Shown here: positions 8,886-58,057 of the stretch, piece by piece
Numbering within the stretch: the stretch's first letter is position 1
Layout of the letters: the number at the start of each line of letters is the position of its first letter
From: Leucoraja ocellata
Taxonomy: Eukaryota
Direction of reading: 5' to 3'
Assembly (NCBI GenBank): GCA_036785375.1
Contig: JAWMAR010000148.1
Coordinates: 62,001-126,000 of the forward strand
Length of the DNA stretch: 64,000 nucleotides
The notes under the pieces: model-generated
Told to the model about the DNA's origin: nothing
Databases searched by the model: none
Seen by the model: the letters and a program-made list of their open reading frames with translations, nothing else
Position numbers and translations under genes: made by a program

Positions 8886-9727
8886 CAGGGGTCAGCAACC
8901 TACGGCACTCGGGCCGAATGCTGTCCGTAACCCAAAATGATCCAGCCCGCAGGCGTATTTTTTTTCCCGTATTTATCAGGCCCGCCAACTTCCTTCATCT
9001 CCGGTACCTCCTGGGCCCGAGGCCGCGGCGCCCATGCGCGGTGACGCAAGGAAGCCCGTGCTGGCGGCCGCAAGGGCGGAGAGGTGAGGTGCGGTGAGCA
9101 GCCGAGGAGCGCCAAGCTCTGGCTGTACCGCATCCTGCACAAAGCCACCAGCATGGCCGCACACATTCTGTGTCTGGGCTTCACTGTCAGGATCGGAGGT
9201 AGATGAAAAAGCTGGAGAAACTCAATGGGTGAGGCAGCATCTACGGAGTGAAGGAATGCGATGTTTTGGGTCGGGACCCTTCTTCAGAAGTGCTTTGAGA
9301 CCCGTCTGAAGAAGGGTTTCGACCCGAAAGGTCGCCTATTCCTTCGCTCCACAGATGCTGCCTCACCCGATGAGTTTATCCAGCTTTTTGTCTACCTTCG
9401 ATTTTTCCAGCATCTTCTGTTCTTTCTTAAACACACTGTTGGGATCGGGGTTGTCAATAGGTTGGGGACGAGTGAGTGTGAGTATTTGAGCCACCGCCTT
9501 TAGGACAGAGCCAAGGCAATGGTCCGTAGGTGCGCCATGTTCGTGACGCCCGTAACTAGGGGGCAGTGCTCCGGGTGGCATCCTCGAAGGGTCGGGGTCT
9601 ATGTGAAACACGATTTGATGCCTGCCAGGGTGGGGGTGGGATCCATGTGTACACGTAATAGATGTGGCCCGCCAACCGCTCACAGACGTGTCCCGGCCCC
9701 TATGCAGAACAAGGTTGCCGACCCCTG
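8886..9727. mobile_element. Non-autonomous hAT (Charlie-like) DNA transposon
   Basis: TIRs caggggtcagcaacct / aggttgccgacccctg (15/16); perfect 8-bp TSD cactaaat at 8878-8885 and 9728-9735; GC-rich interior. Confidence 0.9.
9197..9433. mobile_element. Miniature fold-back Penelope-like element nested in the hAT element
   Basis: Inverted arms about a short spacer, hammerhead-like core at 9306-9333 (+) with a decayed antisense copy, extra 3' tail on right arm, TSD cactgtcaggatcgg (9182-9196) / cactgttgggatcgg (9434-9448). Confidence 0.85.
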
Positions 9728-9904
9728 CACTAAATAATATACACTTTATCTGTACAATGTGGACAGTTTGATTGTAATCATTCATATATAGTCTTTTCAT
9801 TGACTGGATAGCAGGAAACAAAAAGGTTTTTCTCTGTACCTTGGTCCACGTAAAAGTAATAAACAAAACTAAACTAATTAAGCACTCTTGACTTTTAGTA
9901 TAGT

Positions 9905-10480
9905 GCATCCACCACCGATCCCAACAGTATGTTCCAGATTCCCACCACCCTCTGGGTGGAAAAAGTAAAATCTCAAATCTCTTAAACCTTTTACCTCTTA
10001 CAGAACCCTACAATATACACTATGTAATTTTGTATACCTCCAGCCGGTTCCTCCTCAGCTTCCTTCACCTCACGAAACAACAACGCTAGTCTATCGGCCT
10101 CTTCTCATAACTGAAAGGCTCTATCACTGAAAACATTCTGGTGAATCTCCTCTGCACGCATTCTTGTGCAATTACAACCTTCCTATCATGTGGCAATCAC
10201 AAATGCACACAGTACTTCACCTGTGATCTAATCAGTATTTTATAATTTTACTCCATGACCTATGTATTCTTGCTTTTATGTCCCAAGTAATGAAGTTGGT
10301 GAAAATGTATGCCATTTTCACAACCGTCTCTTCCTGTGCTGTTACCATCAGGGACGTTTGCACTTGTACATAAAGGTCCTGTTCCTCAATACTTCCGAAA
10401 GCCCTCCCATTCGTTGTATATGCTTGAATAAATGTAAGCCACAGTTTTGCATTTGATATCTTACTTTGCAAAGAATTGCA
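9905..10480 (-). mobile_element. Old CR1 LINE fragment
   Basis: Antisense CR1 3' motifs (ttccagattcccaccaccctctgggtg...); minus ORF has YTTNGRAFGSIEEQDL.VQV..SL. Confidence 0.65.
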
Positions 10481-11356
10481 GGGCATCTTTCTTCTGACAA
10501 GTAATATGATTTTAATGGCCTTTAAAAGTGGAAAAGTAAATAGCTTTCTCAGATTACTATATTTTATTTTGTTCATGACCAATGTATTTTCAAAAATATT
10601 CACTCTTTCAATTCAAATAATATATATCCTAAGATCTTTATCAGAATACTCTGTGTCTGCCAGAATTGTGTTCATTGCAGTTCAGGCCAAAGACTTCTCT
10701 ATATATGAATTATTTTACTTTACTTTGCACATTTTCTCTACCTCATCTGGTACTGCCAAAGTTGTGTTTCCCTTTGTCTGCTGAGAAGGCCGCTGGTTTA
10801 TTTTCAAGTTAATGCTTATTGATAACATCTATGATTTATGTTGCAACTTCAGGCGCTCTTTTATGGTCAACAAATTCAAGTGTTTTTTTAGCTGACGCGT
10901 AAATTCTTCCATCATAAATGATTCAACAAAGAAGAAGCTGTTTTGATATTGTGTTTCTGAACCATCAACCGCAGCTTCGAGACTTGAGCATTCAATCTGT
11001 ATGATTCTTTGGTATTGCGGAATGGGTTCATGCCCAAAGCAGTCTTGGGAGATCATGATTCCAGTTCTAGCAGTCTTGATGATATTTGTGAATGGGAAGA
11101 TTCGGCATTTGAATTGTTTATATGAATTGTTTCTCTGTGTATTGCTGCATGCTGTCTGATGGAGGGCGAAATCATTTTTGGAAGGACTTGTCGAGTCATA
11201 GAGACCTACAGTATGGAAACAAAAATGTGGGCAACAGTGAGGACATGAGCTATTGACAGATGGTGATGTTCACAGGGACCTTGAGTTTTCCTATTTATGA
11301 ATCACTGATAATTAATGTGCACGTTGAGTAACTAATTAGGAAGGCAAAGTGTATGT

Positions 11357-11473
11357 TTGAGAAATGTTTGCAGAACTGCTGGTAAATCGAAGGTAGACAC
11401 AAAATGCTGGAGTAACTCAGCGGGTGAGGCAGCATCAATGGAGAGAAGGAATTGGTGATGTTTTGGGTCGAGA
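11357..11473 (-). mobile_element. Penelope-like terminal-repeat fragment
   Basis: aaatcgaaggtagacacaaaatgctggagtaactcagcgggtgaggcagcatc...ttttgggtcgaga. Confidence 0.75.
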
Positions 11474-11479
11474 AAGAAG

Positions 11480-11825
11480 ATTTGAGTATGCGTGCAGAGA
11501 CACCTTGCACCAATTATTTAGAGCCCTGGTGAGATTGCATCTGAAATATTGGGTTTAAGTCTAGTCTCCCCACTCAATGAAGGATGTATCTGCGGTGGGA
11601 AGAAAGGTTCAACAGTTTGATTCTTGGCATAAGAGAGATTAAGCAACCTAGGCCTATACTCCTTTGTGTTTAGGAAAATAAGATGTCATTGTCGCATAGT
11701 CATATTGTAACATCTACAGGATAAGATAGACACAGGTTTGATGTTTTCCTTGCTAGGGTGTACAGCAACGGGGGCCTCTGTCTTCGAAAAAGGGTTAGAC
11801 ATTCAGTTGAAGGTGGTGAACACAG
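11480..11825 (+). mobile_element. Old CR1 LINE fragment
   Basis: tatttagagccctggtgagattgcatctgaaatatt (LY.ALVR.HLEY-like) and downstream CR1 motifs. Confidence 0.6.
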
Positions 11826-12644
11826 CTTGTCAGTGGCTCTCTGGTCTTAAAGAAATAATCTTCCTTTTGATTTCACATTAAGTTGTTGAAAAGTGAATTG
11901 AAAACAACTTCTTAGAACTCTCCAGTGGATCCTTGCAATGCTCCTGACTTGGCAGTAAAATATCACACAAGATTTGGTGCATGTTTTGACACTTGTTCTG
12001 TGTGCTTTCTGACCAATCTTCGTGCAAATGAAGGCCCTAATATTTGTGCAGAGTGACTTTAGTTTAGGTTGGCTACCAATCTTTATACGTGGCTTAAATT
12101 GTTGAAGTCGTCAAGTTACAAACAAATCTACAACTTAGAAAGTTCCTCAAAACTAAACGTGGGAGAAAAATATTGATGGTATGAGCAATATTTACCATTC
12201 AATGCCGAGAAAGAAATTGAGGTTCAGTATATTGACATGTGTCCTGGCATTATAGATTTGTTAGTGTGGTGCAGACATGGTAAACCTTCAGCTGTGCTGC
12301 CTTGTGGCCTTTAATTCAACGTTATGCGCATAAGGTGTTTCCAGGAGGTTCTGGAGTTCAGCATGCTTGAGTGGGTGGTGGAAGTATCTAGACGAGCAGT
12401 CGATTGCCAAGGTATAGAACTGCTGATGTATGGGATTAGTGTAGATGGGTTATTGACATGTTTCTATGCAGCATGACTCAGTGTTTGGCGAAGCAATGTC
12501 ATATACCGCAAGCTTCAGACTGCACTATTCCAGGAACTTTTCTAGTCAAGTTTTCAATCAGCTGCTCTATTGTATTTGTAAAAGTCTTATGTTAGAAATG
12601 ATGATAAGATTTGCTTAGATATGCAAGAAGGAACACTTTTTAAA

Positions 12645-12730
12645 ATCAATCGGTAGACACAAAATGCTGGAGTAACTCAGCGCAACAGGCAGCAGGAATG
12701 GTTGACATTTTTGCTTGAGACCCTTCTTTA
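12645..12730 (-). mobile_element. Penelope-like terminal-repeat fragment
   Basis: ggtagacacaaaatgctggagtaactcagcg...gagacccttct. Confidence 0.7.
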
Positions 12731-13842
12731 AGATCTATAGTTTTGTGTGGGGAGGAGAAAAGTATTTTACCTTCCATAAGCTGTTATTCTGGAAAGTGAA
12801 ACAATTTATAAGGCTATTATGTGATTTCAAGTGTTGTATACAGGAGTTCCTATTACTATAAATTATTTTATGCATTTGTTTGATTTGAAAGATTAACTTT
12901 GGCATTAAGTTAATCTTTTTTATAAATGATGACACTTCTGTTTCCTGTAGATATGAACAGTAGGTCCAAGTATATTTTCAGGTGTTATTAAATTGAAAAG
13001 CTTGAGGTTTTCTACGAGAGCAAAAAGTATCTAAAATGTTTTTTTATTATCAGTTGGATTAGCTGATTAATCCATTTTTTGCCCATAAGCAGAGCCTTAA
13101 AAACAACATTTTGTGGTTTATCTTTGGTTTGCTGTGCATGCACATCTTTGGTTTGCCTTTGGATTCTTTTAATCTATTTTGTGTGGTGAGTCATAGCATG
13201 TGTCCAACATTATGGTTTAATCTTCTTTTAATTGTTCACAGATGGCTGTTTTGAAATCGGGCATTGCTTTCAATAAGCAGGTGTTTATTTTGTACGCCTA
13301 ATTTTTTCCAGTGATATTTAGAGTTTTGAGTGTATAATGCAATATACAAAGCAAATTGTAAAACCTGTTCCACACTAAGCTTTGTCAGTGCTCTGAATCT
13401 TCTTGATTAGTTTCTTATCCTCTGAGCAGAAGCTGTTCATCTTCTATTCCGTATGGTCTCTCTATTTTAATTTAAATTAAAGTCTATTGAGAGTTTCAAT
13501 AGACTCGAAGCAGAAGAAACTTTATCAATCATCAGATTCCTTGTATGTTTTGTTTGGAGTCCAAAATATTTATTTTGCATTGCTGTGCAGCCTATTGGAG
13601 ATTATTGTTTGAACCAGCCAACTGTTCATTTATAAGTTTCAACTGAACTTCCTGTTTTGACTTAATATTTGGCCTTTTGTGGGTCAAAGAATTTGAGATG
13701 GAGACATCCTGTTCTTAGCAATTCATCTTCTAAATAATGTGTTCTAATTCATTCTTTGAATTGAATTTGAAAGTTTTTTTTCAGAAGTTGACTACTTTAA
13801 TAAACTTGCTTTGCACATCTCATCAAAAAGTCAATGTTTTGA

Positions 13843-14210
13843 CTACTCCCTGTTTGAACTGTTGCCGTCAGGCAGACGGTACAGATCCACAAGGACAAGG
13901 ACAAATAGACTACAAAACAGTTTTTACCCCACTGCTATAAAAGCACTAAATGTGGCCGCCAAGGAACGCAGGGGCGATACAGACTAAGGGACTGTGGTAA
14001 CGGTGAAATCGACAGAAGGATGGAGGGTTGGGTGTGTATGCGTGCTTTGTCTGTGTTTTTTATTTATTTGCTTATCTTTATTATTTTACCGTGGATGTTT
14101 CGTTAGCTTTAGAAATGTTTGAATGCTGCACTGACTGGCTGACATTTTAAATTTCGTTGTACATGGCCCATGTTACAATGACAATAAAGAAACTATTCTA
14201 TTCTATATTC
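13843..14210 (+). mobile_element. Rex1/Babar-like LINE 3' end
   Basis: SLFELLPSGRRYRSTRTRTNRLQNSFYPTAIKALN, then 3' UTR ending caatgacaataaag and (ctatt)n. Confidence 0.8.
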
Positions 14211-15169
14211 TTTAGTTAAAAAAAAAGCCTACTAAATGCAAACAGAAATGTAAGCGAGACAAGCACAACCACTCAGGACAGTGCAGCACAGAAACGGGCC
14301 CTTCAACCTACAATGTCTGTGTCAAACATCATGCCAAAATAACCTAATCTCATCTGTCTACATACGATCTATTTCCCTCCATTCCCTGCCTATCTAAAAG
14401 CTGTATAATTGCCACCATCACATCTGCCTCCAACCCTGGCAGTACTTTCCAGGCACCAACTGCCCTCTGTGTAAAAAAACAAACTTGCTTTGCACATCTC
14501 ATCAAAAAGTCAATGTTTTGATTATTTTTTCAGGGGAGATGACTGAATTTCTATTCACTGACAAAATTGGGGCATGTTTTTTTAATTTCAAAAATAAATT
14601 TTATTCATAATATATAAATATATATGAAGCAATACAATTAGCACATCTTTCTTTAGATCCTTAGTGTTTAAAGTCAATGCATTCAGTGCCATCAAGTTAA
14701 TAAATTCAATTTACAAAGTCTGATTGCCATTCATGGCCTCTGAACAATATACTTTCAAATCTTTAAGAGGTCAATATACTGAACACATCCCCTCAAAGTC
14801 CTGTGGCAACAAGACCTATGATGTCTTTGCTTTGGCTTTGCTTTGTACCGCGTATCAGTGTATTCCTTTACACATATCCCTGCAGCTTGGAATGTGCCAG
14901 TTAGCAGCATTCACTTACAGATAATTTGTTACACTGAATAATCTGCACGTTTTGAGCAGACCAAAGTGCATCTTTCTTTGAATTTATGATCCTCTAGTAG
15001 GACCTAAGGTTTGATCCGATGCTTTCTCTGGGGACAGCCCCTAACTCAGACAGCCAGCTCAGAGAGATTGTCTGTCTTCTCATCCACATCTCAGCTGTAT
15101 TGTGAGAAGCATACGTTGGAAGCGAGACTCGGCCGTGCATGAATATTCTGGCAGGAAGATGTGGGTTTA

Positions 15170-15310
15170 CTAAGAAAGAGACAAGGTGTTGGAATCTCGG
15201 CGGGTTAGGGAGCATCTATGGAGAGCTTGGATAGGTGGTGTTTTAGATTGGGACCCATCTTCAGCCTGAATAATGTTGGGAATGCTTTATCACCCATTCT
15301 CTGGAGACAG
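15170..15310. mobile_element. Decayed Penelope-like terminal-repeat element
   Basis: gcatctatggagagcttggataggtggtgttttagattgggacccatcttcag resembles the antisense repeat and core. Confidence 0.5.
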
Positions 15311-15494
15311 GTGTATAACGATCTTGGATCTCCAGATAAAATGGAAGATGGCTCTAGCAACTGCCAAGGCACAGGAGTGGGGTATGAGTCATACCTGTGC
15401 ATGTACAGCAACACCAGGAGTACCTCGCAACTGATCACTATGTTCCCGCAGTCCCAAATGTTGTTTGACCTTTTGGCTGCTGCCAATTCTTTGA

Positions 15495-16100
15495 GGTTTT
15501 GGGAGAAGGGATCTGCTTGGATTTGAAAAGGTAAGGACAGATTAGGGAAAGTCAGCATAGCTTTGTGCGTGGAAAATTGTGTCTCACCAAATAGTTTTTT
15601 AAAGAGGTGAACAAGAACATTGAAGAGGACTGTGGAGTAGATATTGTCTATATAGACTTTAGCAAGACCTTTGGCAAGTTACTGCAAGATAGCTGGACTG
15701 GAAGGCTATCATATCACATCAGATCCATGACAAACTAGCCATTTGGAATCAAAATTGGCTTGAATTTAGAAAGACAAGTAGCGGTAGAGGATTGTTTTCA
15801 GACTGGAGTCTGTAACAAATTATGTACAACGGGGATTGGTGCTGGATCCACTGCTGTTTGTTATTATTTACATTAATGATTTGGATTTGAATGTAGTTGG
15901 CTTGGGTAATGCGTTTTGCATCACACAAAAATTGGTGATATGGTGGACAGTGAAGAAGATTATCTCTGATCACAACGGGATCTGGCCCAACTGAGCCACT
16001 GGGCTGAGGAATGGCGGACGTAGATAAATTAAAAGTGTTGCATTATGGTAGAACAAACCAGGGCTGGACTTGCACAGTAAATGATAGGGACCTGGGGAGC
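15495..16100 (+). mobile_element. Old CR1 LINE RT fragment
   Basis: SQHSFVRGKLCLT, VDIVYIDFSKTFGK, GLVLDPLLFVIIYINDLD motifs with frameshifts. Confidence 0.8.
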
Positions 16101-16483
16101 TTGCATCATGAATCATGGACCACATAATAATTCAGCCCAGATTTTTTCATTGAAATCATTCCTGCTGAGTCTTTGTGTTTAATTTCTCCATTTCCAAATT
16201 TGAGTAAATTTGAAGGAAGCACTCTCTCAGATGGATCGCTTACCAAATTCCCTTACATATTAATTTCCAAGTGCAATTGTTTAACATTTTTCTTTATCTA
16301 GGATGCTTTAACACAGCTTTCAATTAATCTGTATTAGTACCTCATGGAATTACTGGTAGAGTTTGATGAATATCTCCCAGCCAGAATTATCTGTAATTGT
16401 GTCTAAGGTCTTGCAGTGTTCGATCTCATACTTCTGTGAGAGCTTTGTGAGTCACTACATTCATCTCTGACAAATATCTTTAC

Positions 16484-17008
16484 CGGAGCCGTGGTTTGCG
16501 GAGCTCACAACGCGGGCGGCGCTGATGGACAGCGCGGAGTCCTGCGACTCTGCCCGGCTCAGCCTGCGGACTCAGGAGCTGCAGACTCCGGCAGCGGGAG
16601 GCGGCTGTTCAGGATGTCCAGGACGCTGAGGAGGAGGATGCTCACCGTCGGGGTTCGGCGTCGGCGTTCCACCAGCCCGGCGTGAGGGCCTGAACATCGG
16701 GCCACCCGGGGCGGCGACTGCGGGTGCTTGGAAGGCCCCGACCGCGGATGAACACGGAGGAGAGGCTGGCTGGACTATGGTGCCATCCTCACCTTGGTGC
16801 CATTTATGTTATGTTGTGTCGTGGACTTTCTGTGTTTGTGCTTTTTTTTAAATTCAATTTCAATTTTATTTTTAATATGTTTTATTATTTATTTATTATT
16901 TATTTATTTTTTTGTGATTTTTTTTTTATGATACTGCTTGTAAGGGAAATTCATTTTGTTGTCTCAAATTGAGACAATGACAATAAATTTGAATACAATA
17001 CAATACAA
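16484..17008 (+). mobile_element. Non-coding retroposon with CpG-rich 5' part and LINE-type tail
   Basis: 12-bp TSD aaatatctttac (16472-16483, 17009-17020); tail with gtctca-aat-tgagac hairpin, caatgacaataaa and (aatac)n. Confidence 0.8.
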
Positions 17009-18861
17009 AAATATCTTTACAATATTTTAGACTTGATTCCTTTTTCAGTTCCATGACCAACGTTACATATTGGAGTCTCTACTTTTGGCAAATTTAAAAG
17101 GAGTATAAATGTCAAATTTGCTCTGTCCCCCTCCCGTCAAAAGAGGTGTTCAAGTGATGAACGCCTGATAATGTCATGACCAGAGCAATAATGTTTTGTC
17201 TTTAAACTTTAGCTTGATTTGTCAACATTGCTCTATCAGCCTATTACTGTGTGATTGGGTAGTTTTCATACCCAAGACCATTTTACAACAAATTCCAATG
17301 TAGAGCAACAGTCATTTGAGCACAGTTATTTTTGCACGTGTGAAGATATCGTTCGGATTGAAATTCTTAAGCATTATTGGTGGCATTTATTTAATTATGG
17401 GATTAATTTTTTATGCTGTTTTTCAAATTGGGCCAGAGACTGTGTGAGTTTATATGAATCTTACTGTGTTACTCAATTTAATTATGCCATTATAAATCTC
17501 TTCCACTTTATGAAAGGAGAATCATTTTTTTATTGTCATCCTGTTTTTTTTTAAATCTTTTTTTTCCACTTGATTTTCCTCCGTCATTACTAGCCATTTT
17601 CATTCAGTTCAGGAAATTGTTAATTTTTATCTACCCATTATTAGTCAGTTTTCAGTCCATGATTATGCTCGCCTTCATCTCCCCCAGTAGTCTCCTGTGT
17701 GGTTCCCTTCTTAATTGCTCCCTTAAACTCTGTATACACCATAATACATATATAGCATTTCATCCATTCATTATATTGTTGCCTCATATCAGTAGAAACA
17801 GGTACTTAATGGAGCACTAAAGGGTCTGAATCTGTGCTGTGTGATCCTTCAACTCCATAATTCTGAAGTTCGTTGATCGTTTTAAAAAATATCAGGATTG
17901 TCCATTTTTGGTCATATTTTCTTTACTTAAAAGGTAATGCAGACTCATTCAAAAAGCACAAAATGTAGAAATGAAGGTGTATGGGGTTTTTCTGCATAGC
18001 TGGATTAAGAGGGCAGTTAAATTATCTATCTTAATCTTGAGTGTATTTTTAATGTAACTTATTTATATTTATGGATCTATTGTGATAGTTTTACCATAGT
18101 CTGTAAAATATCTTACACCAGAATTGCTGTCACGGCAAGCTTAATATTAGGCAGTGATATTGATCTGTAAATTGACCAAGAATTCATTGAAAGAAAAAAA
18201 TAATGCTATAGATTATGAATTGCCAGAAGTTTTTGGATGATCTGTGTTGTTTAACATATGTATGGTATTTCTCTCTTTAGCAATTCTTCGTGGAAATTTA
18301 CTTTGCTAAATGTTTTAGTTTTTTCCCCTTGCTCTTCCTTTTCTCTTTTCCGGTTCTTCCTAATCCATGTTTTTCCCCCATTATTTTTCTTTTTGGATTT
18401 GATTTAAATCTAATTCATCTAATTTCCTTCTCTATTGTTCTACTTCCTCCTTAACCTCTATATCTAATTGGTTCAGGAAATAAACACGGTTCAATCTTTG
18501 GCCAGGGTTCCTGATGTAGCATTGTCCTTTTTGCAGTACTACCGGTTCCAGAAAGTTACAGAACTAGATTGTTTGAGTCAAAAGGTGAAGGAAGTTGTCC
18601 AAGAACTGGGCACACCACAAGTTGCTCCATTGCAGCAAATTCTGGCCTACATGTCTTGTTTTTATTGGTATCCATTGATAATTCACCATCCAATCAGATG
18701 CTACTAAGATAAACTTCATAAACTTGGAATGCTGCTAAGATAAATTAGCAAACTACAGGGCATTGTAATATTGGTGGAAGGATATTCTGCAAACAACACC
18801 AAGGTGTTCTGATGAAACTAATTCATGAAGAATTCACAAGTACCAGATGCTCCCCTAATTG

Positions 18862-19392
18862 CAGAGATACAGATGCAGAGGTACAGCGCTGAAACAGGCC
18901 CTTCAGCCCACCCCATACACTAACACTATCCTACACACAAGGGACAATTTTTTACAATTTTAGTTTAGTTTTTGTTTTGAGATAGAGCAAGGAAACCGGC
19001 CCGTCTGCCCACCAAATGCACGCTGGCCAGTTATCCCAATAAACTAACATTATCCTACACACACAAGAACCAATTTAGCAAAAACAATTAACCTACAAAT
19101 CCGTATGTCTTTCGCATGTGGGAGGAAACCGGAGCACTCGGAGAAAACCCACGCGATCACGGGGAGAAGAATCAAATTCCATACAGACAGCACCGTTCAT
19201 AACGATTAAACCCAGGTCTCTGAAGTTCTAAGGCAGCAACTCTACTGCTGCACCTTTGTGGGAGGAAACTGGAGCATAACCATTGGAGGAAATCCACACC
19301 GTTACTGGGAGGATATATTAACTCCGTACAGACTGGATCAAATCCTGGTCTCTGACACTGTAAGGTAGCAACTTACTGCTTCGCCACTGTGC
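18862..19392 (-). mobile_element. Cluster of HE1/V-SINE-like SINE copies
   Basis: Repeated tgtgggaggaaaccggagcactcggagaaaacccacgc (V-domain antisense) and tRNA-head antisense ...ggcagcaactctactgctgc. Confidence 0.8.
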
Positions 19393-19804
19393 CACACTTG
19401 TGTAAGGGTTATGTCCCATGGACTCTACATAAGTCAGATGTTACATTAGTCTGAAACTGATGTGCAACTGTGTGCATGTAAATTTACTATTCGTACTGTG
19501 TAGACCACCTAGGAACTCCGACGCGAAAACCATGTGGGAGATCTGAAGCAGAGGCCACGTGGGAACATCCACAAGAACAGCCGACTGGCTTGCGGAAATG
19601 GCCGCATATGCAATAGCGCACTGCTACCTAGATGCTCAATTCGGAAATAAAACAGTGGGCTTTGTAATTGCGAGCGAGTTTATCTAAGTGGCCTATTACA
19701 TGTGGGGGTGTGTCTGTATGGATTTTTACAGCAGAACTGATACTGATGCGAAGATGAGGAAGATGTTTTTAATCATGTGAGGGCAAGGCTACTTTCAGGA
19801 CAGA

Positions 19805-20855: not shown

Positions 20856-21118
20856 ATCCCGATTACGGGTGATGCATGTACAGAGTTTGTATGTTCTCTC
20901 CGTAAGCCTGCGTGGGTTTTCTCCGAGATCTTCGGTTTCCTCCCACACACCAAAGGCATACGGGTTTGTAGGTTAGTTGGCTTGGTAAATATAAAAATTG
21001 TCCCTAGTGTGTGTAGGATAGCATTAATGTGCAGGGATCGCTGGTCGGCGCGGACGCGGTGGCACGAAAGGCCTGTTTCCACGCTGTATCTCTAAACTAA
21101 AAAAATAAACTAAAAAAT
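20856..21118 (+). mobile_element. HE1/V-SINE-like SINE (5'-truncated, well preserved)
   Basis: gagtttgtatgttctctccgt...gcgtgggttttctccgagatcttcggtttcctcccacac V-domain; CR1-like tail ggcctgtttccacgctgtatctc(taaac)n. Confidence 0.85.
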
Positions 21119-47971: not shown

Positions 47972-48270
47972 CCAAGAGTCAAGAGAGTTTTATTGTCATG
48001 TGTCCCAGATAGGACAATAAAATTCTTGCTTGCTGCAGCACAACAGAATATGTAAACATAATACAGAACAGGAGATAAAAGTTCAGTGTGCCTATATACC
48101 ATAGACCATATATATACACAATAAATAAACAGATAAAGTGCAATAGGCTGTTATTGTTCAGAGTTTGTTTGATGGTGAGTTTAATAGCCTGATGGCTGTG
48201 GGGAAGAAGCTGTTCCAGAACCTGGATGTTCCTGATTTCAAGCTCCTATACCTTCTTCCCGATGGCAACT
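47972..48270 (-). mobile_element. Rex1/Babar-like LINE 3' end
   Basis: (caagagt)n tail, ttttattgtcatgtgtcc, and gatggctgtggggaagaagctgttccagaacctgg...ccttcttcccgatggc (antisense LPSGRRY...RF.NSFFP). Confidence 0.8.
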
Positions 48271-48315
48271 GAGAGACACCCTTGCAGTACTGTTGCCTAT
48301 CAACATCTACATCCA

Positions 48316-48634
48316 AAAAATTACTGTTTCAGGACTGGACGAGGGTTGGTCAAGATTATAAATAATGATCTCCTTTTCTTTTTTATTTTATTTTCTTTTC
48401 ACTATTTTCTCTCTCAACTTTCTTCATTTACTCGTTCTCTTTCTTCACACACTATATATTTCACATCTTTCTATCCTTTACTATCTAACTTCTTTTTCTT
48501 ATTCTCATCTTTTTTCAATGTAACAAAAAAAAAAAAAAGAAGTTGTACATAAAATGTATTATGAAAATATATATTAGGCACTTTGGTGCCATATATCTAA
48601 TAAAATAAAATATTTAAAAAAAAACAACAAAAAA
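48316..48634 (+). mobile_element. Poly(A)-tailed retro-insertion (L1/Tx1-type 3' end)
   Basis: 14-bp TSD aacatctacatcca (48302-48315, 48635-48648); aataaa followed by A-rich tail. Confidence 0.75.
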
Positions 48635-50110
48635 AACATCTACATCCATACCATCAACATCCGGAGGGGTCATCATGAGTGGATACTCTACTGAACCAGC
48701 CACAAAGTTTGTGGCTGCAAGAGAAGATCAGAGGCTGGGTATCTAACCTTCATCCCAAAATAAAGACGTGTGAGGAGTCTGATGAAACACTCTCCACTTG
48801 CCTGGTTGAGTGCAGCTCCAAAAAAACTAATTTTCTTGACAACATCCAGGTCAGAACAAGTGTTGTATTGGCACCTGATCAGCCACTCTATATATTAATT
48901 CCCCTTTCCACTGGCACACTGTTGCTTGGTGTATTCTCTACAAAATGCACTCTTGCAGCTCATCTAGGATACTCCAATGGCACTGCCCAAATCTGTGACC
49001 TCTTCCACTAATAAGGACATGGGCAGCAGACTTCCCACCTATTTTAATATCATTGACTTGGATATCTTACACTCTACCCCCTTCTCCAGCTCATTGCGAT
49101 AAATCCTAAATAATTGAGGTCCAAGTACTGATTGATGCCTGGGGTATTCTACCAGTTGCAGCCACATCCAGCCTGCAAAGCCAGCAGGTGGATTATTATC
49201 AAAGTGGAGAGAGACGGAAAGTGAATGAAGTACAGAGGGATTGACATCCATAGATGGCTGTTTTCAAGCATGATAGATGTTAATAGAACAGATTGTGAGG
49301 TAACCTGCAAATAATAAGATTCTCACAGACATTGGAATTGTTTGCATGTGTCATAAGAAAGTATTCAAAACAACGAACACTTGGACTCAGCATATGTTCA
49401 AATGGCAAAATCATGTATTCTGTAATGTTTTCAATAGTATAGATACATCAGCCTATTAAAGTGTCATAGGAATAGATTATCTTGATTTTATTTTCACATA
49501 AATATCTTTTTTACTGCTTCTACTGATCTTGACGGCTTTACTTCTATTTACCTCGTTTCTGCAAATCCGATTGTATTAAGGCTGCAGCAACAGGACAGGA
49601 AGACAGTTAGGAAGCTGATGAGCTACGATCTTATCAAGCGAGGTGATTTGAATGGCTATATTTCTATTTCCTATATTTCTATCTTAGCAGCCGGGTGCCG
49701 ATAATTGTGAGGCAATGAAAATATGCCCACTTAGAGTGCAATTTGTACAAAAGAACAACCCACTGTTTTCTGAATCACTTTCCCTCCACACAGTAGTGTA
49801 AGGAAGGGGAAAAGTTTAGGCAAGTACTTCACAAAGCTAAGCTTGGATTTCTGCCTTTTTTGAAGTATTAATTTAGCTATCATATAAAGATACTGTAAAA
49901 ATCAATCTTTTTTATGAAGATCTCACCTGATGACAGCTCAATTCTCATTAGGGTTATTGCGGTCTAACAAGGCAAGGCCTCGCCTTTTCTATTGAAAATG
50001 AGACAGTCTGCCCAACTGAATTTTTGCTTAAAACGTGAGAGGTAAATGAACACACTTTGAATGCAGGATTGCAACTCCATTTCTTTTAATTCTGATACAA
50101 TCTTTCTCAG

Positions 50111-50245
50111 GTTACCAGTTCACCGGTGTGCATGGATATGAATGGCCACGCCATCCCCACAGAGTTCTTGTCCAGACATAATTCCGATGGACTCTTCACG
50201 TTTGTGGATCACAGATGCATCACTGTCATTGGCTATCAACCGCAG
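50111..50245 (+). CDS. ARNT2: ARNT2 internal coding exon (PAS-B start), 135 nt
   Basis: tttctcag|GTT...CAG|gttagt; [45 protein letters not shown]; [12 protein letters not shown] and [11 protein letters not shown] are ARNT2-type. Confidence 0.96.
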
Positions 50246-50659
50246 GTTAGTTCCTCTGCTCATGTCTTTTACAAATATCTCTTTGTTGATTAATGCTCTT
50301 TTCCATAGCTTTAAAGTCTGAAATTTATCCTGATCTCCACAACTCTTTACAGTACTGAAGTACAGTATTAGCACTGCAGCAAGATATTTGAGGGCAAATA
50401 TTTATTTATATAGGATGGAGGCAGCATTAGAGAAGAATGGTCTGAATGCAGAGCCAGTTACATGGTTTTTATGGCTTTGCTGATGGTTGTAAATCATGAA
50501 AGTGCTGTGGGCTGTGGTAATCTTGTCTGTCAACCAAATACGTTCAGACCAAGCAAATGTCAATGTGTCAGTTTAAAGGAAGCACTGACAGGCTTATCCT
50601 ACTCCTAACAGCTAATTCCCATCCATCTACACATGGCAAGGGATTGTCTTTTGCTTAAG

Positions 50660-50732
50660 AAATGTCTTCACCCCTGTGGCACAGCTTGTAGATTCAGTTT
50701 TGACCATAAATACTGTTTGTGTTGAATTTGCA

Positions 50733-50770
<38 letters not shown>

Positions 50771-51080
50771 TGACTGCAGGTGTTTCCTTTGGATGTCCTG
50801 GTTTCCTTCCACATCCCAAAGACATGTGAAATACCCACAGCTGAGATGTGTGGTATAATCTGGGGATAGTTGATGGGAATGTGGAGAGAGTAAATTGGCA
50901 CAAGTGTAGGATTAGTGCACAGTAGAACACAAAGTGCTTGAGTAACTCAGCAGGTTAGGCAGCATCTTTGTAGAACACGGATCGGTAACGCTTCGAGTCG
51001 AGACCCTTCTTCAGAGTGGTGCAGATGGGTGCTTTATAACCACTTAGGCTGAAGGGCCTGTTTGTGCTGTGTGATTCTAT
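50660..51080 (+). mobile_element. HE1/V-SINE-like SINE containing a poly-C run (50737-50770) and a PLE-repeat insertion (~50925-51015, minus)
   Basis: SINE head/V-domain, then aacacaaagtgcttgagtaactcagcagg...cttcgagtcgagacccttcttcaga, then ggctgaagggcctgttt tail. Confidence 0.7.
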
Positions 51081-53063
51081 AATTCTAAAATATATGCACT
51101 GATTGTTGTCTGATTTTAGTCAATGGACAATAAGAACTGTAAAAATCGATTATTTTTTTTTACCAGTGTAAGGAAATTTCAAGCAGAGGTTTCCTGGAGT
51201 GTTGTAATCTCCTGATCATCTGCGATCTCTAAGCTTAGTGTGTATTTGTGAGATCAGTAATATATTCCATAAGCACTTTCTTTAAATTGTTGAGCCTGTT
51301 CAATGAAATTAACTAGTTTAAGGCCAAAAAATTTAAGAAAAATACTCTCTCTGAAATGAATCCTACATTTATTTAACTTTGTATATAATTATTTTTGCCT
51401 GATTTTACATTATTCAGTATATTTTAGTGCCCCTTAGGGTTGAGCGCTGGAAGAGGAGGGACAGCCGAAGGCATGGCAAATGCTTGGTGGATACAGGTGA
51501 TGAGGGTTTTGGATAGGCAGATGGTTGGACGAAGGCCAGAGATTAAAAGACTTAAGGTGTGAGAGAAGGATATAAATGTTGTGAATTGTGAAGCTGGAGG
51601 AAGGAGTGTAGGTGGAAGGGAAGGGGAATGGGAGAAGGGGAGGTGCAGCAAGACCTGGGAGTGCTTGTACATCAGTCACTGAAAGTAAGCATGCAGGTAC
51701 AGCAGGTATTGAATTTGAGTTTAGGAGCAAAAGAAGTCCTGCATTTGTACAGGGCCCTGGTGAGACCGCTGCACCACTATGCCGCCAATGTCTAGTTCCA
51801 AAAGCGGCACTTCTGGAGAGCAAGTCTGCTTCTTTCTGACAGTTAACACATTAATGTTCTCACTTTGATAATAACGTGTTGCTTGGTGATGCTCCACAAC
51901 AGTTTTTGTATGCTCTCTACATAACGCCATATTCATTGCCTTCTAGGAATCACTGGCCAAATATTCCATAGATGCAGTTGCCATCTGTACATGTGTTGAT
52001 TTTCCAATGTCCAAATGGTGACTAAGCATAGATTTTACATTATGGAATTAATCCTGCTCAAAATCATAAATAGTCTCCAGACCAAATGTTTAATTCTGCA
52101 CAGCCTAGTTGTTCGAACTGAAGCATGTGTGAACTTTGGAAGCTGTCCAGCACTCTAGTAATTGACAATGAATCTGAGTTAATAGTTGACCAACCAAAGG
52201 ACTTCACCAGTTTAATTTGATCCAGAATATGGTGGGACATTTTTCATTCCAAAAGTCATCGCTGAAAATTTCAGCAGATGTAGACAGTGTATGATCATTT
52301 TAGATCTGATGAAAGACTTTTGGCTGGTTTTAAATAGTACAAAGGACCAGGTGGACTCCACTTGGTTATATATCTAACTACTTGAGACTACTCCTTCATG
52401 TAAGTTATTTAGATTTTGAAAATTTAATCAAAGCTTTGCTGATTTTGTCTTTGAAAGTACTAACCACATGTTGATTGATAAACGACTATGGTAATGATGA
52501 TGGTGGGTCCAGACTTACCTGATTAGACCTTGACGTGTTGTTATACCAGGTTGTGTTATCTTGGTCTATTTTAGTTTGTGTGTAGTTCCAGCAGCAATGC
52601 CACTGTTTTTATGTGAAAACTACCAAGGCCTTCTGGCTAATCTAACTGCAGCTTGCAATTCACAGCTAAAGTTGATACAAGTTGAAGTATGTTGGGCATA
52701 CAGAGAAAGGGGGAAAGGAAGATGGGAATCTTACATCTACAAAGAGATAAGGGTAGCAAAGTCATTTATAGAAACACAGATGGATAGAAAAAAACATTCA
52801 AGGCAATTTGTTGTCTTCATTAAGAGTAAACACAAGACAGCATCTCTGGAGGACATGGATAGATGACGTTTGGGTTGGAACCATTCAGTTTTCATTCCCT
52901 TGGATTTCTATTTATTTAAGTATATCAGTTCTAATCTGTCATGATTAAAATTAAAATCAGGAAATATGCTGGATTACAAAACAGCCACCTCCTGCAAGAA
53001 TTGTTGTTGGGAATAATAAGCTGTTATGTTACTTAAGTGCATGACTTTTTTATTTCTCGTCAG

Positions 53064-53138
53064 GAGCTTCTGGGAAAGGATATCGTAGACTTTTGCCATC
53101 CTGAAGATCAAACCCATGTGCGGGACAGTTTTCAACAG
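53064..53138 (+). CDS. ARNT2: ARNT2 internal coding exon (PAS-B), 75 nt
   Basis: ctcgtcag|GAG...CAG|gtattt; [25 protein letters not shown]. Confidence 0.95.
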
Positions 53139-54329
53139 GTATTTATAGCATACGGTGATATACATGGACAACCCTGTGTAAGGTCAAATGTGCTTGCATC
53201 TAGCCTTCTGCATGCCGCTGACTTGACCTTTTTCAAAGCCCCAGCACAGAAGTCAAGTTGACCAACAAGGTGCATAGGGGCATAGGCGAGCCTGGTTATT
53301 ATCTCAATGCTGTTTGCAGGATCTTACTTTGTGCAAATAGGCTATCTATCATGTCCTGTATCCTGTGCAAAACATCTAAACTACCTATTGTTAGTAAACA
53401 ATCTTAAGCCCTCCTCTCCTGATATTTAAGTATAATTTATTTCAATTTTCCTATTTTCCCTTTTTTTTCCCATTTTTCAAGATGAAATAATGGCCTTGAA
53501 TGCTGTTTCAGCCAAAACAACCTTGACCAGCACCCTTGAATTCAACAGATTCCTTAACTACAAGTGTCTTTAATCAATCTATTTTGTAACATAATGCACC
53601 CGGCAATATATTCATGCACTTTATTATTGAGCATGCGTCTCATTCAATCTTTCCATTATATACCAATCTTATCAGTTAAAACACCGTGCTTAGTTTGGAG
53701 ACCAGCACTGTAGGCAATGTTGTTTCCACTGGCGTTACAATATAGCTGGAGAAAAATACAAATTTTATCCGAGCCCTTCATTCAACACTTTGTTCTTGCA
53801 TCCATAAAGTTATTTCTGACCTCGCCTGAGCTGCTGACATTATCAGAGATTTGATAACATGCAACGAGAAAGCGAGGAATGTGAAACGAATGGACATCTG
53901 GTTTTGAACCTGTAAGCATTGTGTTCACGTTTGTTTTCCTAGGAAAGAAAACGATATGAACTGCAGTGGGAAACTTGGACCTATGTGTTGCATACTTGGG
54001 GCCAAGAATAACATGGAACGGTATCATCAGATTTATCTGTTGCGAAATCGGAAGCCCTTGATCTGGGAACTCAGAAATCATGTGTCTTTTGTGATCCTGT
54101 GAAAGGGCGCAGTGCCTGTTTCTGTTCTTTCAAGGGTGTTGGTCAAGGGAAGTTTTTTCAAGCCTCTAATCGCAAGTTTTGAAAATCAAAAGACACTCTG
54201 TTTTGTAATCAATCTGGGAACAAAGACCACTTAAATATGACTGACAAGACAAGTAGAATTTTATCTTCCTTTTTAAAGGGGATAGTTTGGGGAGTTCATT
54301 CAGTTTATAATATATTCACTTTCAAATTC

Positions 54330-54690
54330 TGAGCAGCCTCACTTCGACCATCTCCAGCTCTATATCACTACATTCAACATTTGCTCACCTTACGGATCTG
54401 CTGTTTGTTTCCTTGCTGCACTCTACCTCTTCAGCCATTCAACCTTCAGAAAACCCTGACATTCCCAATTTTCATCACTATTTGCTGCTTTCCCTTCAAA
54501 TGCCTATCCCTTTAGCTCTTTTTCCTTCAGAAAAACCTTCCAAATATCTACCTCTCAATCTCTTATGAAACCACTCTTTCAAACCTGTTTCTTTGATAAA
54601 GCTTTTGGCCATTTCACCTACTATTGTTTTATATGGCTAGAATTGTATTCGATACGGCTTCTATGAAAGACCTTGGTATTTGATATTTTG
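54330..54690 (+). mobile_element. Ancient L2 LINE 3' end
   Basis: Pyrimidine-rich decayed match to L2 C-terminus and tail (aaacctgtttctttgataaagcttttggcc, ctatgaaagaccttgg). Confidence 0.4.
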
Positions 54691-55139
54691 ACATATATTA
54701 ATGCCCTGGACATGAGGATATAGATTAAAATGTTAGTTTCCATATGAAATGAAATAATGAGGATAATTTTAACAGACTTCAGAAGGGGATAAACTGATGG
54801 AAAGACATATGTGCTTCAAAATCTATCTGTCAATAATGCCAACCCAGCACTATAGTAATAACAACAGAAGGTGCTGAAAATACTCAGCAGGTCAAGCAAC
54901 TTCAATGGAAAAATAAATAGTTAACAGTTCAGATACTAGACCTTTCATCAGTCTTGTGGTGTCAGCATATTTTATTCTGCCTTTAATATTTATAATTATT
55001 TTAATTTGACTTCTCTCCTTGAAGCCCTTAACGTTGTCACCGTTATCCTAATCAAAAGTCTCCTCAGTCTATAACTTTAACCATAAATTTGCATCTCGTC
55101 AAACATTCCTACTGGACCTGCCTTTTATTCCTCCCTAAG

Positions 55140-55400
55140 GTATGGAGCATTTAATTTACCAGACGAGTAATCCGGAGGCCTGGAGTAACGATCCAGAGAC
55201 CCAAGTTCAAATCCCACCATCATAGCCATGGAATTTGAATTCTGTTAATAATCTGTTATCTGGAGATAAAGCACCAACCAGTCTTCATAATGATGGCTGT
55301 GAAAATTTGCCATCTTTCTGCGGTGACCCACCTATAACTCCAGGCCACCCCAAATGATTGCCTCTTAATACGCTCTGAACTGGTCTAACCCTGTTATATT
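55140..55400 (+). mobile_element. Old tRNA-derived SINE
   Basis: gtaatccggaggcctgg...gagacccaagttcaaatcccacca (B-box) head. Confidence 0.5.
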
Positions 55401-55769
55401 GTTGTTATTACTACATTGAAGCAAAAGGAATAAAACTGCTTGGAACATCAGGCATGTTGCTTAACTGGACCAGTCGCACTTACATCATGGCTGTAAGAGC
55501 AGATCAGACACTGTGTATCCTGTGGTTAGTGATTCACTTTTCTGGCACCCTAAAACACTTACACTGGCACCGAATGCAGACATCAAATTCACTCAAAACC
55601 CAGTTATTTTGCATTATCCTCACAAATAAGTAGAGTTAGCCAAGTTAGTCGGACCAGTCGAGCAAAAGCCTAACAAGGCATCGCTCATGCCCTGATTCCA
55701 CAGAGATAATCTACCGGACTCTTCAGTTACATTCCTTTGGTACATCCTGTCTTACCAACAAGACAAACA

Positions 55770-56315
55770 CACCAGATTTTCAGGAGATTCGGCAACTTAC
55801 CGAATATTCTATTGAACTTCCAAAGGTATATTGCGGAGACCATATTGACTGGTTGCATCATGGTTTGGTACAGAACTTTGAATGATGGAGGCTTTAGAAA
55901 CTGGTGGACATTGCCGAGAACATCACTGACCTTCCCACCATTGAAGGGGCCTACAGGAAGCGCTCCTTCAAGAAGAACGGTAATATTATCTCAAACCTGC
56001 ACCATCCTGTCCAATCTCTACCCACTGCTCCCATCGGGAGGAAGGTACAAAAGACAGAGAATCACAGTTATCTCCAGGTTTCAGGAGCTCCCATCAGGAG
56101 TTCCTCCCATCAACCAGCCTGAACAAACCTAACCACAACATTACTTCAGCACCAAACCATTGTGGACTTTGCCGTACTCTGGTTGCTCCGCGTACTAATA
56201 TGGTCTAGTTTACTTCGAATTATTGATAATTTACTGTATATTTTGTTGTTGAGTCTAAAGTGGCAGCAAGTAAGAATGTCAGTACATGTGACAAATAAAT
56301 ACGCTTCTGACTCTT
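55770..56315 (+). mobile_element. Rex1/Babar-like LINE 3' fragment
   Basis: RRFGNLPNILLNFQRYIAETILTGCIMVWY; PLLPSGGRY; tail gtacatgtgacaaataaa. Confidence 0.75.
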
Positions 56316-57129
56316 GAAGTAATTGACCTTTCATCAGGAATGAAAAAGTGAGAAAAACAACTATGTTTGAAGTGGCAGAGGAGGAAAGGGATAAGGAGAG
56401 CAAAAGTGAAAATCTGTGAGATATTGCTTTTATGCTGCCCAATGGGAATGAATGTTGGTTAATCATAACTGATCTGATTGGAAGAGATTAATAGAGGGAG
56501 TTGAATAAGGGCAGTTAGAGAAAGGAAAATTCACATGCCAGAAATGAGAGATGCACAATACACCATTTGATGGAAAACTGAAGTTAAAGTAATTTATGGA
56601 AACAGTTTGCGATCTATGTTGCTCAATGGAGAGGAAAAACTGAGTTAATGTTACAGGTACATGCAAATGAAAACCTGAATAAAAACTGCTGGAAATCCCA
56701 AATATAAATCGGTAAGACATGGATTACCAGATAATTGACCAGTGTTGATATATTCATCATCTGTGATATTGTCAGCTTTCTTTCTCTCCACAGAACCTGC
56801 CTGATGTGTTGAAAGTTTCCACATTCTCCTTGATTTCCCGTTTCTGGCATCTGCTGAGCTTAGCCTCTTATGTCCCGCATGTTGCCTTTATCTCTCTGTT
56901 ATCGCTCCTATTCATCTTCCTCTGTTTACACTGCTCCACATGGCTTAGCTATGATTTCTCTCTTAGTTGGCATCAAAACAAACGGGTGGCACCGGCAATG
57001 GCTGCCTCGCCAACAGTCTGTCTGTCCCTTCCTTTTGTTGTATGTTTGTATGTGTTAAATGTATGCTTTTAGTGTTCTTTAGCTTGTTTTATGTGCGGGT
57101 TGGTGGGTACAGTCTATTTTTCTTGGCTA

Positions 57130-57221
57130 ACAACCTTCCAACTTCGGCTTCCAAGACGCATGTAAATTTGTGTGCCTTATTTTTGGGTAAAAAATAGTGA
57201 CTTCATTGCCGGGAAATACGG
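57130..57221 (-). mobile_element. Tc2/pogo-like transposon terminus (single end)
   Basis: ...gccgggaaatacgg|ta = reverse complement of ta|ccgtatttcccggc; partner end not found. Confidence 0.45.
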
Positions 57222-57505
57222 TATTTATAAACATAGCACCAAGAAATCTACTTTCCACATCATTTGTGCACGAACTACATTCTTCTCTCTTTGTTTCTTA
57301 AGATATTCTTAAGATAATGGCAATCCATGTTTGAAAAACCCGCAAAGAAATTTGTGCTACGCGTGCGCAGTATGCTGCTGCACATGCACAGTACAGCAAA
57401 GGCAGAATTTCAGCTGCCTTTGGTCCCCTGGAAATTGACAGCTTGAAGCATCTTCGACGGCATGTGGGCTGCACAGACCTTCGTGTGTTACATGCACTGC
57501 GGATG

Positions 57506-57574
57506 AAAGGCACGGAGAATTATGCCTTCCTAAGAGATCGATCTCTTAGGTAGGCATTATTCTCCCGTGCCTTT
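57506..57574. repeat. Spacerless ~69-bp palindrome
   Basis: aaaggcacggagaattatgccttcctaagagatc|gatctcttaggtaggcattattctcccgtgccttt; perfect 22-bp core 57529-57550. Confidence 0.9.
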
Positions 57575-57896
57575 ACTATTTATATTTAATAATTACTATT
57601 TTATAATTTTAGCCAGGGTAGGCAGTGCCCACCTTGCCCATCCTGACGGCATGTGCCTGGCTGTATGGTAATTCGAATTTCACTGTACCTTAATTGGTAC
57701 ATGTGATAATAAACTAACCTTGACCTTGACCTTAAAAAACAACTTGCAGTGTTTCCTGTTTTAATTTCAGCTCTTGCTCATTGTGTTCTGCCATATTTGA
57801 GAAGAAGGATGTTCTTGGTCATGTTATAAGGCCATAAATGATAGCAGAATTAGGCCATTCGGCCCATCAAGTCGACTCCACCATTCAATCATGGCT

Positions 57897-58057
57897 AGAC
57901 ACAAAGTGCTGGAGTAACACAGCGGGACAGGCAGCATCGCAGAAGAGAAGGAATGGGTCAATCCTTCTCTCCAGAGATGCTGCCTTTCCCGCTGAGTTAC
58001 TCCAGCATTTTGTGTCTACCTTTGATTTAATCCAGCATCTGCAGTTCTTTCTTACAT
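57897..58057. mobile_element. Miniature fold-back Penelope-like element inserted in a CR1 3' end (CR1 ~57825-58115, minus)
   Basis: Inverted arms with hammerhead core deleted at the centre, 3' tail on right arm; perfect 14-bp TSD attcaatcatggct (57883-57896, 58058-58071). Confidence 0.88.

What the first reader, a model, noticed from the sequence alone, without database searches (positions are those of the whole stretch)
9197..58057. Family of miniature fold-back, hammerhead-bearing Penelope derivatives with one conserved insertion architecture
Seen: three independent insertions (9197-9433, 30682-31565, 57897-58057) share a layout of 14-16 bp TSD, antisense terminal repeat lacking the last ~33-40 nt, variable spacer (about 270 bp, about 15 bp, nearly 0), sense repeat with tail ...ccagcatct..(a/t)gttc..tctta(a)ac, TSD. 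More than a dozen further fragments of several ages occur in 64 kb. Several keep CUGAAGA-A-[GGGU-loop-RCCC]-GAAA-C-GUY. Established: PLE pseudo-LTRs carry minimal hammerheads thought to act as dimers and can be inverted with a short 3' tail. Inference: a high-copy non-autonomous hairpin class, or a stereotyped product of fold-back/twin priming by a PLE RT-GIY-YIG enzyme. This is the best candidate here for an under-described system. Caveat: helix I is only ~2 bp, so catalysis is unproven.
Basis: partly seen in the sequence, partly recalled or inferred. Interest (0 to 1): 0.7.

Follow-up and report, generated by a model that had tools for sequence, protein, structure and literature searches.

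The report
Two-ended stubs of Penelope retrotransposons
These small hairpins are the cut-down ends of a very abundant Penelope-type jumping gene, likely laid down afresh at each insertion by two copying events that meet head to head; the layout is already known, but the copies stop unusually often at the edge of the element's small ribozyme motif, which gives a testable clue to how such elements insert.

Summary
The three insertions are real as described: TSDs of 15, 16 and 14 bp, and a tail on one arm only. They are not a new hairpin family. They are the short end of a continuum of 5'-truncated copies of a Neptune-type Penelope-like element (PLE). An intact RT+GIY-YIG copy in the same genome has the same layout. 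The '270-bp spacer' is antisense endonuclease coding sequence, and the third copy has no hammerhead core. Inverted pLTR, one-sided tail and two RT start sites are published, and this scan noted the same thing on other DNA (24 notes, 10+ genomes). Measured here: (1) exactly one tail in 34 of 35 TSD-verified young pairs; (2) the tail-less arm is often the longer, and junction centres are mixed, which fits two annealed cDNAs rather than fold-back; (3) recurrent junctions at near-palindromes (634 and 2,312 exact loci) from several source subfamilies; (4) 5' ends pile up at the 5' edge of hammerhead helix I, 18-fold over controls, with no peak at the cleavage site. The cause of (4) is open. Verdict: new member of a known kind, useful as a dense mechanistic record.

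The parts
9182..9196 (.). E1 left TSD (15 bp, 2 mismatches to the right copy)
9197..9288 (-). E1 tail-less arm; 5' end at position -1 of the hammerhead core; G12 mutated
9289..9303 (.). E1 15-bp junction filler
9304..9433 (+). E1 tailed arm; starts at G(-2), the 5' base of helix I; core 9306-9333; tail about 9398-9433
9434..9448 (.). E1 right TSD
30666..30681 (.). E2 left TSD (16 bp, exact)
30682..31242 (-). E2 tail-less, longer arm: endonuclease C-terminus, 3' UTR and pLTR end
30892..31242 (-).
   Evidence: PF01541, E=4e-4
30748..30775 (-). minimal hammerhead core, E2 left arm
31240..31565 (+). E2 tailed, shorter arm; 3-bp overlap with the left arm; tail about 31531-31565
31437..31464 (+). 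minimal hammerhead core, E2 right arm
31566..31581 (.). E2 right TSD
57883..57896 (.). E3 left TSD (14 bp, exact)
57897..57959 (-). E3 tail-less arm; begins about at the predicted cleavage site; no core
57960..58057 (+). E3 tailed arm; no core
58058..58071 (.). E3 right TSD
6819..7291 (-). older 5'-truncated copy of a related PLE family: endonuclease fragment, different UTR, intact core
44858..44945 (-). solo tail-less stub with an 11-bp exact TSD
214..63386 (.). span of the other terminal-repeat fragments: hits start at 214, 5755, 11369, 12625, 15157, 26911, 27344, 30435, 34841, 34874, 38325, 45239, 50905, 52835, 54864, 61738, 63295

Best explanation
Each unit is a single insertion of a Neptune-type Penelope-like retrotransposon end, likely made by two-ended target-primed reverse transcription rather than by copying a pre-existing hairpin. 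Shown: an intact partner (RT, CX4CxxC linker, GIY-YIG) with the same layout; a length continuum from 113 bp to 5.5 kb; TSDs with mode 15 bp; one tailed and one tail-less arm; both arms from one source haplotype; junctions favouring near-palindromes. Inferred: the enzyme, probably a dimer, cuts both strands about 15 bp apart. Each 3' end pairs by 1-4 nt with one of two start sites about 35 nt apart, and the two active sites use different start sites. Both make cDNA in the same direction, probably on two RNAs from one source locus. The cDNA 3' ends then anneal at self-complementary words or are end-joined with filler. When only one cDNA is kept, a plain 5'-truncated copy results, tailed or tail-less. 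Copies are mostly tiny because cDNAs very often end at the 5' base of hammerhead helix I (shown); a defined RNA 5' end or a protein-bound boundary there is the likely cause (inferred, unresolved). The hammerhead motif is inherited cargo: a transcript through a hairpin unit carries one sense core, predicted to be paired with its own antisense arm.
For: Partner: L031, a 1,247-residue open frame with RT (PF00078, E=1.9e-6, below the curated cut-off) and inverted tailed arm + tail-less full copy + TSD. The E2 fragment gave 160,913 first-look candidates and 150 of 150 scored at 100% identity. Most young copies are plain 5'-truncated with either end type and different breakpoints. One-tail rule: 69 of 84 close random pairs vs 47% expected (p=3e-11), both-tail 2 of 84; 26 of 27 close and 6 of 6 mid-range TSD-supported random pairs; 34 of 35 TSD-verified young pairs. 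Tail-less arm longer in 13 pairs, tailed longer in 6, equal in 15. Junction centre A in 8 and T in 7 of 15, C in 5 and G in 3 of 8. Exact junction loci 634 and 2,312, controls 0, from several subfamilies. TSD/template overlap of 2 nt or more in 23 of 34 and 22 of 36 ends vs about 17% by chance. Arms share haplotype and private variants; mismatch 0.41% within pairs vs 0.76% between loci. In vitro precedent: both strands cut and extended, two start sites flanking the tail, predicted dimer (PMC11167929).
Against: No biochemistry on this element. Private variants shared by both arms also fit one RNA, DNA copying or later gene conversion. The bias to longer tail-less arms is not significant by itself (p=0.17). 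One young pair has no tail (L167); 13 of 84 close random pairs have none and 2 have both. There is no stop where a tail-primed cDNA would meet the second start site (159 of 11,488, 1.4%), so the single-RNA version lacks support. PMC11167929 saw no strand preference of start site in vitro and no homology to the cut DNA, unlike the genomic pattern here. PMC3846280 explains palindromic junctions by self-priming on an antisense template.
Confidence: 0.75

Rival explanations
1. A self-propagating, non-autonomous hairpin family (MITE- or SINE-like) is transcribed and re-inserted whole by the PLE enzyme.
For: Identical junctions recur at 634 and 2,312 exact loci. Short copies far outnumber long ones.
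Against: The same junction occurs in different source subfamilies and with either central base. It falls on words that are self-complementary in the parent. Other breakpoints are scattered, and the same layout appears in copies up to 5.5 kb. The tail-less arm ends at the site where solo copies also end.
Confidence: 0.07
2. One cDNA folds back on itself at a palindrome and is extended (self-priming), on a sense or, as PMC3846280 proposes, an antisense template.
For: Junction palindromes, near-identical arms and shared private variants; published proposal.
Against: Fold-back from a tailed cDNA makes the tailed arm longer or equal, but the tail-less arm is longer in 13 of 19 unequal pairs, E2 included. 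A tail-less first cDNA has no template for the tail. The 9-nt junction would need a 1-nt loop and a fixed centre base, yet centres are 8:7. Many junctions have filler or no palindrome.
Confidence: 0.13
3. The short arms are run-off cDNAs from a short RNA whose 5' end lies at helix I, made from an internal promoter in the pLTR or from solo stubs that have become SINE-like templates.
For: 18-fold pile-up of 5' ends. TCAGT at -5..-1 resembles an initiator (recalled consensus), and Drosophila Penelope has an internal promoter (PMC2377424). An extra G at -3 in 16 of 25 informative copies. This concerns why the arms are short and is compatible with the best explanation.
Against: Only 1 of 15 independent loci that carry the pLTR-ORF junction and reach this region begins at -10..0, and 0 of 9 long ORF-bearing copies do (p=5e-4 against 50%). 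In a second list the extra base was G 18, C 14, T 6 (my count), and several G's come from short duplications of the element.
Confidence: 0.3
4. [quoted passage not shown]
For: The E3 left arm starts about at the predicted cleavage site. Helix I U-A/U-G and stem II pairs are kept across copies.
Against: No peak of 5' ends at +26..+30 (3, 2, 2, 4, 1 copies vs 30 and 22 at -3 and -2). The two cores lie on opposite strands and the units fold into one long hairpin. Intact cores in 122 of 603 random termini; core columns 0.914 vs 0.889 for comparable columns. In PMC11167929 cleavage was not needed for insertion in vitro.
Confidence: 0.05

Closest known systems
Insertion units of endonuclease-positive PLEs with inverted pLTR and one-sided tail (PMC8557442 passages; Adineta Pen2a/Pen2, PMC3846280 passages and Discussion; D. 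virilis Penelope, PMC2377424 passages)
   Same: 5' truncation, partial tandems, head-to-head inverted copy, 30-40 bp tail often at one end only, TSD, palindromes at the inverted junction.
   Different: TSD mode 15 bp vs 8-10 bp in the Adineta examples. Most units here are 110-250 bp without coding sequence, at about 500 termini per Mb. The one-tail pattern is close to a strict rule here.
Neptune/Nematis-type PLE protein (PMC8557442 passages)
   Same: Single ORF, RT then C-terminal GIY-YIG with two cysteines between LIY and YIG, and a CX4CxxC linker.
   Different: Longer, proline-rich N-terminal half. Neptune versus Nematis was not resolved by a tree.
Poseidon-Ac of Anolis, in vitro (PMC11167929, main text read)
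   Same: Hammerhead about 95-130 nt upstream of two end positions that delimit the tail; both strands cut and extended; predicted dimer.
   Different: Different clade. Genomic ends here show 1-4 nt primer-template overlap and a one-site-per-end rule, neither seen in that assay.
Minimal PLE hammerheads (PMC4209133, first half read)
   Same: CUGANGA, extra base, stem II, GAAA, palindromic ACGU, no helix III; mostly single motifs in truncated PLEs, some in pairs on opposite strands 100-700 bp apart; 2-bp helix I in D. virilis, whose intron ends at helix I.
   Different: A pile-up of 5' truncations at helix I is not described in the parts read.
Non-LTR retrozymes (bioRxiv 10.64898/2026.07.22.740005, part 1 and passages)
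   Same: Non-coding, pLTR-derived, hammerhead motif.
   Different: Retrozymes are head-to-tail arrays; these units are head-to-head with TSD and tail. Short head-to-tail arrays of this family do occur elsewhere in the genome.

Membership tests
EN+ Penelope-like element | Single ORF with RT and C-terminal GIY-YIG in a full-length partner | tested here: met
   L031 frame; Pfam RVT_1 E=1.9e-6 and GIY-YIG E=4e-4 on the E2 fragment, both below curated cut-offs; 1,042 homologues, the listed ones mostly with PF00078 and some with PF01541
EN+ Penelope-like element | pLTR formed by a partial tandem; 5' truncation; inverted copy at the 5' side | tested here: met
EN+ Penelope-like element | Optional 30-40 bp tail | tested here: met
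   Ends at +94 and +129 from C3; two-peaked 3' ends
EN+ Penelope-like element | Minimal hammerhead motif in the pLTR | tested here: met
   Motif and pairings; no Rfam model matched
Neptune/Nematis clades | CX2-5CxxC linker before GIY-YIG | tested here: met
   CGRRRCNTC in P0001; definition
Neptune clade | RT phylogeny | not tested
   No named reference sequences were at hand
Self-propagating MITE/SINE-like hairpin family | One shared junction and common descent of units | tested here: not met
   Mixed centres, several subfamilies, scattered breakpoints
Non-LTR retrozyme | Head-to-tail tandem units, each with a hammerhead on one strand | tested here: not met
   E1-E3 are head-to-head
Active hammerhead ribozyme | Self-cleavage | not testable with these tools
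   Helix I has 2 bp (third pair formed in 16% of copies); no breakpoint peak at the cleavage site
Existing Dfam/Repbase entry | Annotated consensus with this structure | not testable with these tools

The most novel reading that the evidence does not exclude
The PLE dimer assigns one start site to each target end, and the hammerhead fold works here as a template boundary rather than as scissors. Reverse transcription runs off, or is stopped at, the 5' base of helix I, giving strong-stop-like cDNAs that anneal head to head. The miniature hairpins would then be a fossil read-out of the whole PLE integration cycle and of a non-catalytic role for the ribozyme.
Probability: 0.3. Interest if true: 0.62.

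Novelty: new member of a known kind. Interest (0 to 1): 0.38.

Why it matters
How PLEs, the sister group of telomerase RT, make tandem and inverted insertions is stated as unresolved in PMC8557442 and PMC11167929. This genome holds roughly 1.7 million termini (extrapolated from 603 in 1.2 Mb), thousands of near-identical young copies and an intact source. That turns a qualitative layout into counted rules (one tail per insertion, 15-bp stagger, 1-4 nt priming overlap, palindrome joining, stop at helix I) that an existing in vitro assay can test. It also warns annotators that these hairpins are not MITEs, microRNA precursors or new ribozyme elements.

Tried and rejected
DNA search of the own genome with the terminal repeat returned nothing because common words are skipped; this is no evidence. 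Rfam gave only generic hairpin matches below gathering scores. PDB sequence search had no hit. Cleavage-defined 5' ends: no peak. Roadblock at the second start site, predicted by a one-RNA model: absent. Simple transcription-start model for the helix I pile-up: weakened by the ORF-junction loci. Splicing model: a pyrimidine tract plus CAG ends at -2 in the long copies, but I saw no shared upstream exon, no distant TSD implying a captured host exon in 30 loci, and no splice joint to this site among the listed joints. No RNA holder listed. Two lays of RNA runs, from what is probably a related species, showed no start or end pile-up at the ribozyme; they are fragmented or single-cell libraries dominated by read-through of stubs, so they are uninformative. 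Cap-derived G: enriched in one sample, weaker in another; left unresolved. Rows dropped: 11 of 44 TSD-scored pairs with gaps over 900 bp (7 from one tandem array, 4 matching neighbouring tails), 9 duplicate loci, 10 duplicate loci. One search ran with a one-column offset that lies inside its search window and was fixed.
Full report
Observation. TSDs are 15 bp with 2 mismatches, 16 bp exact and 14 bp exact. The left arm lacks the last 33-40 nt in each, and the unpaired middles are 15, 267 and 0-3 bp. A profile built from 103 natural copies finds 25 termini in the window and none in reversed controls. Two points need correction. The 267-bp middle of E2 is the extra length of the tail-less arm and encodes the GIY-YIG C-terminus in antisense. 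E3 has no hammerhead core, and only 4 of 24 aligned window hits keep the 11 core bases.

The parent. The window lies in a 3.44-Gb genome; that it is a cartilaginous fish is my recall plus earlier scan notes. The 116-aa E2 fragment gave 160,913 first-look candidates, and 150 of 150 scored were 100% identical. I fetched the surroundings of 20 matches chosen for long open frames. L031 holds a 1,247-residue open frame with RT, a CX4CxxC linker and GIY-YIG, which matches the Neptune/Nematis linker definition (PMC8557442 passages). Among 50 young loci most copies are plain 5'-truncated, end at one of two sites, and have different 5' breakpoints. The two end sites lie at +94 and +129 from hammerhead C3. 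Several families with different UTRs share the block from TCAGT to the tail.

Census. 120 stretches of 10 kb at arbitrary positions gave 603 termini, about 1.7 million genome-wide if representative. Neighbours within 60 bp were head-to-head 103 times, tail-to-tail 13 times and same-strand 41 times. Of 84 close pairs with both ends readable, 69 had one tail, 13 none and 2 both; independence predicts 47% with one. With a TSD score of 10 or more (0 of 400 in permuted controls), 26 of 27 close pairs and 6 of 6 pairs with gaps of 109-690 bp had one tail; 11 further pairs with gaps over 900 bp were artefacts and were dropped. Among young loci, chosen by protein or junction pattern and so not random, 34 of 35 pairs with an exact TSD had one tail, and TSD length peaked at 15. 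The exception, L167, has none. TSD and template overlap by 2 nt or more at 23 of 34 tailed and 22 of 36 tail-less ends, against about 17% by chance.

Self-propagating or made each time. Two junctions recur genome-wide: 634 exact loci at the 9-nt near-palindrome just before the core and 2,312 at the 13-nt near-palindrome in stem II, with 0 in controls. In 15 and 8 loci examined, relative to the tail side, the central base was A 8 / T 7 and C 5 / G 3, and the first set came from several subfamilies. Other junctions are scattered, with short overlaps or filler. This fits recurrent annealing of two same-sense cDNA ends with a central mismatch resolved either way; it does not fit one copied hairpin. 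Fold-back from a tailed cDNA predicts the tailed arm is never shorter, but the tail-less arm was longer in 13 pairs, the tailed in 6, and 15 were equal. The two arms share the subfamily haplotype and, in six loci, variants seen in no other copy, so they come from one source. A tail-primed cDNA shows no stop at the second start site (159 of 11,488), which fits two RNAs from one locus or easy strand displacement.

The stop at helix I. Among 344 random copies at least 85% identical to a reference, 101 of 145 that reach the ten bases before C3 end there, against about 0-0.1 per ten bases further upstream; for the youngest families it is 19 of 33. Genome-wide, a non-template base class ten bases upstream occurs in 9,383 of 35,564 copies at this site (26.4%, implying about half truncated), against 110 of 7,575 and 159 of 11,488 at two control sites. 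Of 30 such loci, 10 were inverted pairs, all with one tail, and 10 were solos (two of them duplicates of one insertion) with an exact TSD ending within 23 nt of the core, so the boundary is real. Both E1 arms end there. The commonest first base is G(-2), the 5' base of the 2-bp helix I. There is no peak at the cleavage site. Candidate causes are an internal start site, trimming to a protein-bound fold, or a block at the pyrimidine tract plus CAG. Against a plain start site, only 1 of 15 independent pLTR-ORF junction loci that reach this region begins there. The RNA lays did not help.

The ribozyme. Stem II and the two helix I pairs are kept in 80-89% of 221 copies, with a U-A / U-G alternation, and a third helix I pair forms in 16%. 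Core columns are only slightly more conserved than comparable columns (0.914 vs 0.889); 122 of 603 termini are intact. E1 and E3 fold into single long hairpins, and the two cores of a unit are on opposite strands, so a unit would not form the tandem dimer. Catalysis is untested.

Literature. PMC8557442 (passages) describes the inverted 5'-truncated copy and a 30-40 bp tail often at one end only. PMC3846280 (passages and Discussion) shows inverted pLTRs with tail, 8-10 bp TSDs and junction palindromes, and proposes self-priming on an antisense template. PMC11167929 (parts 1-2 of 4) shows two RT start sites bounding the tail, extension of both strands and a predicted dimer. PMC4209133 (outline and parts 1-2 of 4) reports minimal hammerheads in truncated PLEs, pairs on opposite strands, and a 2-bp helix I at an intron end in D. 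virilis. PMC2377424, PMC6155905 and PMC8969392 were seen as passages, and the 2026 retrozyme preprint as part 1 and passages. [quoted passage not shown] Nine searches listed no paper whose title or abstract states the strict one-tail rule, two-cDNA annealing or the helix I pile-up; subscription papers, Dfam, Repbase and supplements were not checked. The scan holds 24 similar notes from at least 10 genomes, one of which already remarks that copies tend to stop at the ribozyme; these are not independent evidence.

Verdict. This is a known PLE insertion architecture at its minimal size, from a new and very abundant Neptune-type member. Interest 0.38, resting on the counted rules and the unexplained boundary at helix I.

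Noticed in passing
L264-L293 (pLTR-ORF junction loci; 86 exact matches genome-wide): Many are composites in which a normal 3' piece is preceded by a piece ending 211-288 nt after C3, most often at about +266. This suggests a recurrent RNA end or template-jump entry about 100 nt into the ORF. Several form short head-to-tail arrays of 280-500 bp that resemble retrozymes.
   Followed up: partly
window 31395-31435 and long copies of all families: A pyrimidine tract plus CAG, like a 3' splice acceptor, ends exactly at G(-2) of helix I, echoing the D. virilis intron end described in PMC4209133.
   Followed up: partly
L246, L253, L258, L263: Filler between the TSD and the core repeats the first bases of the core, as if the cDNA end re-primed at the boundary.
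   Followed up: no
L261: Inverted unit whose left arm is the tail alone.
   Followed up: partly
L111, about 8967-9356: Head-to-tail run of three 130-bp units, each beginning at the helix I edge and ending at the tail.
   Followed up: no
window 27063-27280, 33283-33751, 59498-59789: Three unrelated long inverted repeats, MITE-like; the first is flanked by TA-like ends.
   Followed up: no
window 60214-60723, minus strand: Open frame resembling a Tc1/mariner transposase fragment (motif recalled, not searched).
   Followed up: no
window 34841-34960: Rearranged stub: a sense core, a short antisense segment, then a sense end.
   Followed up: no
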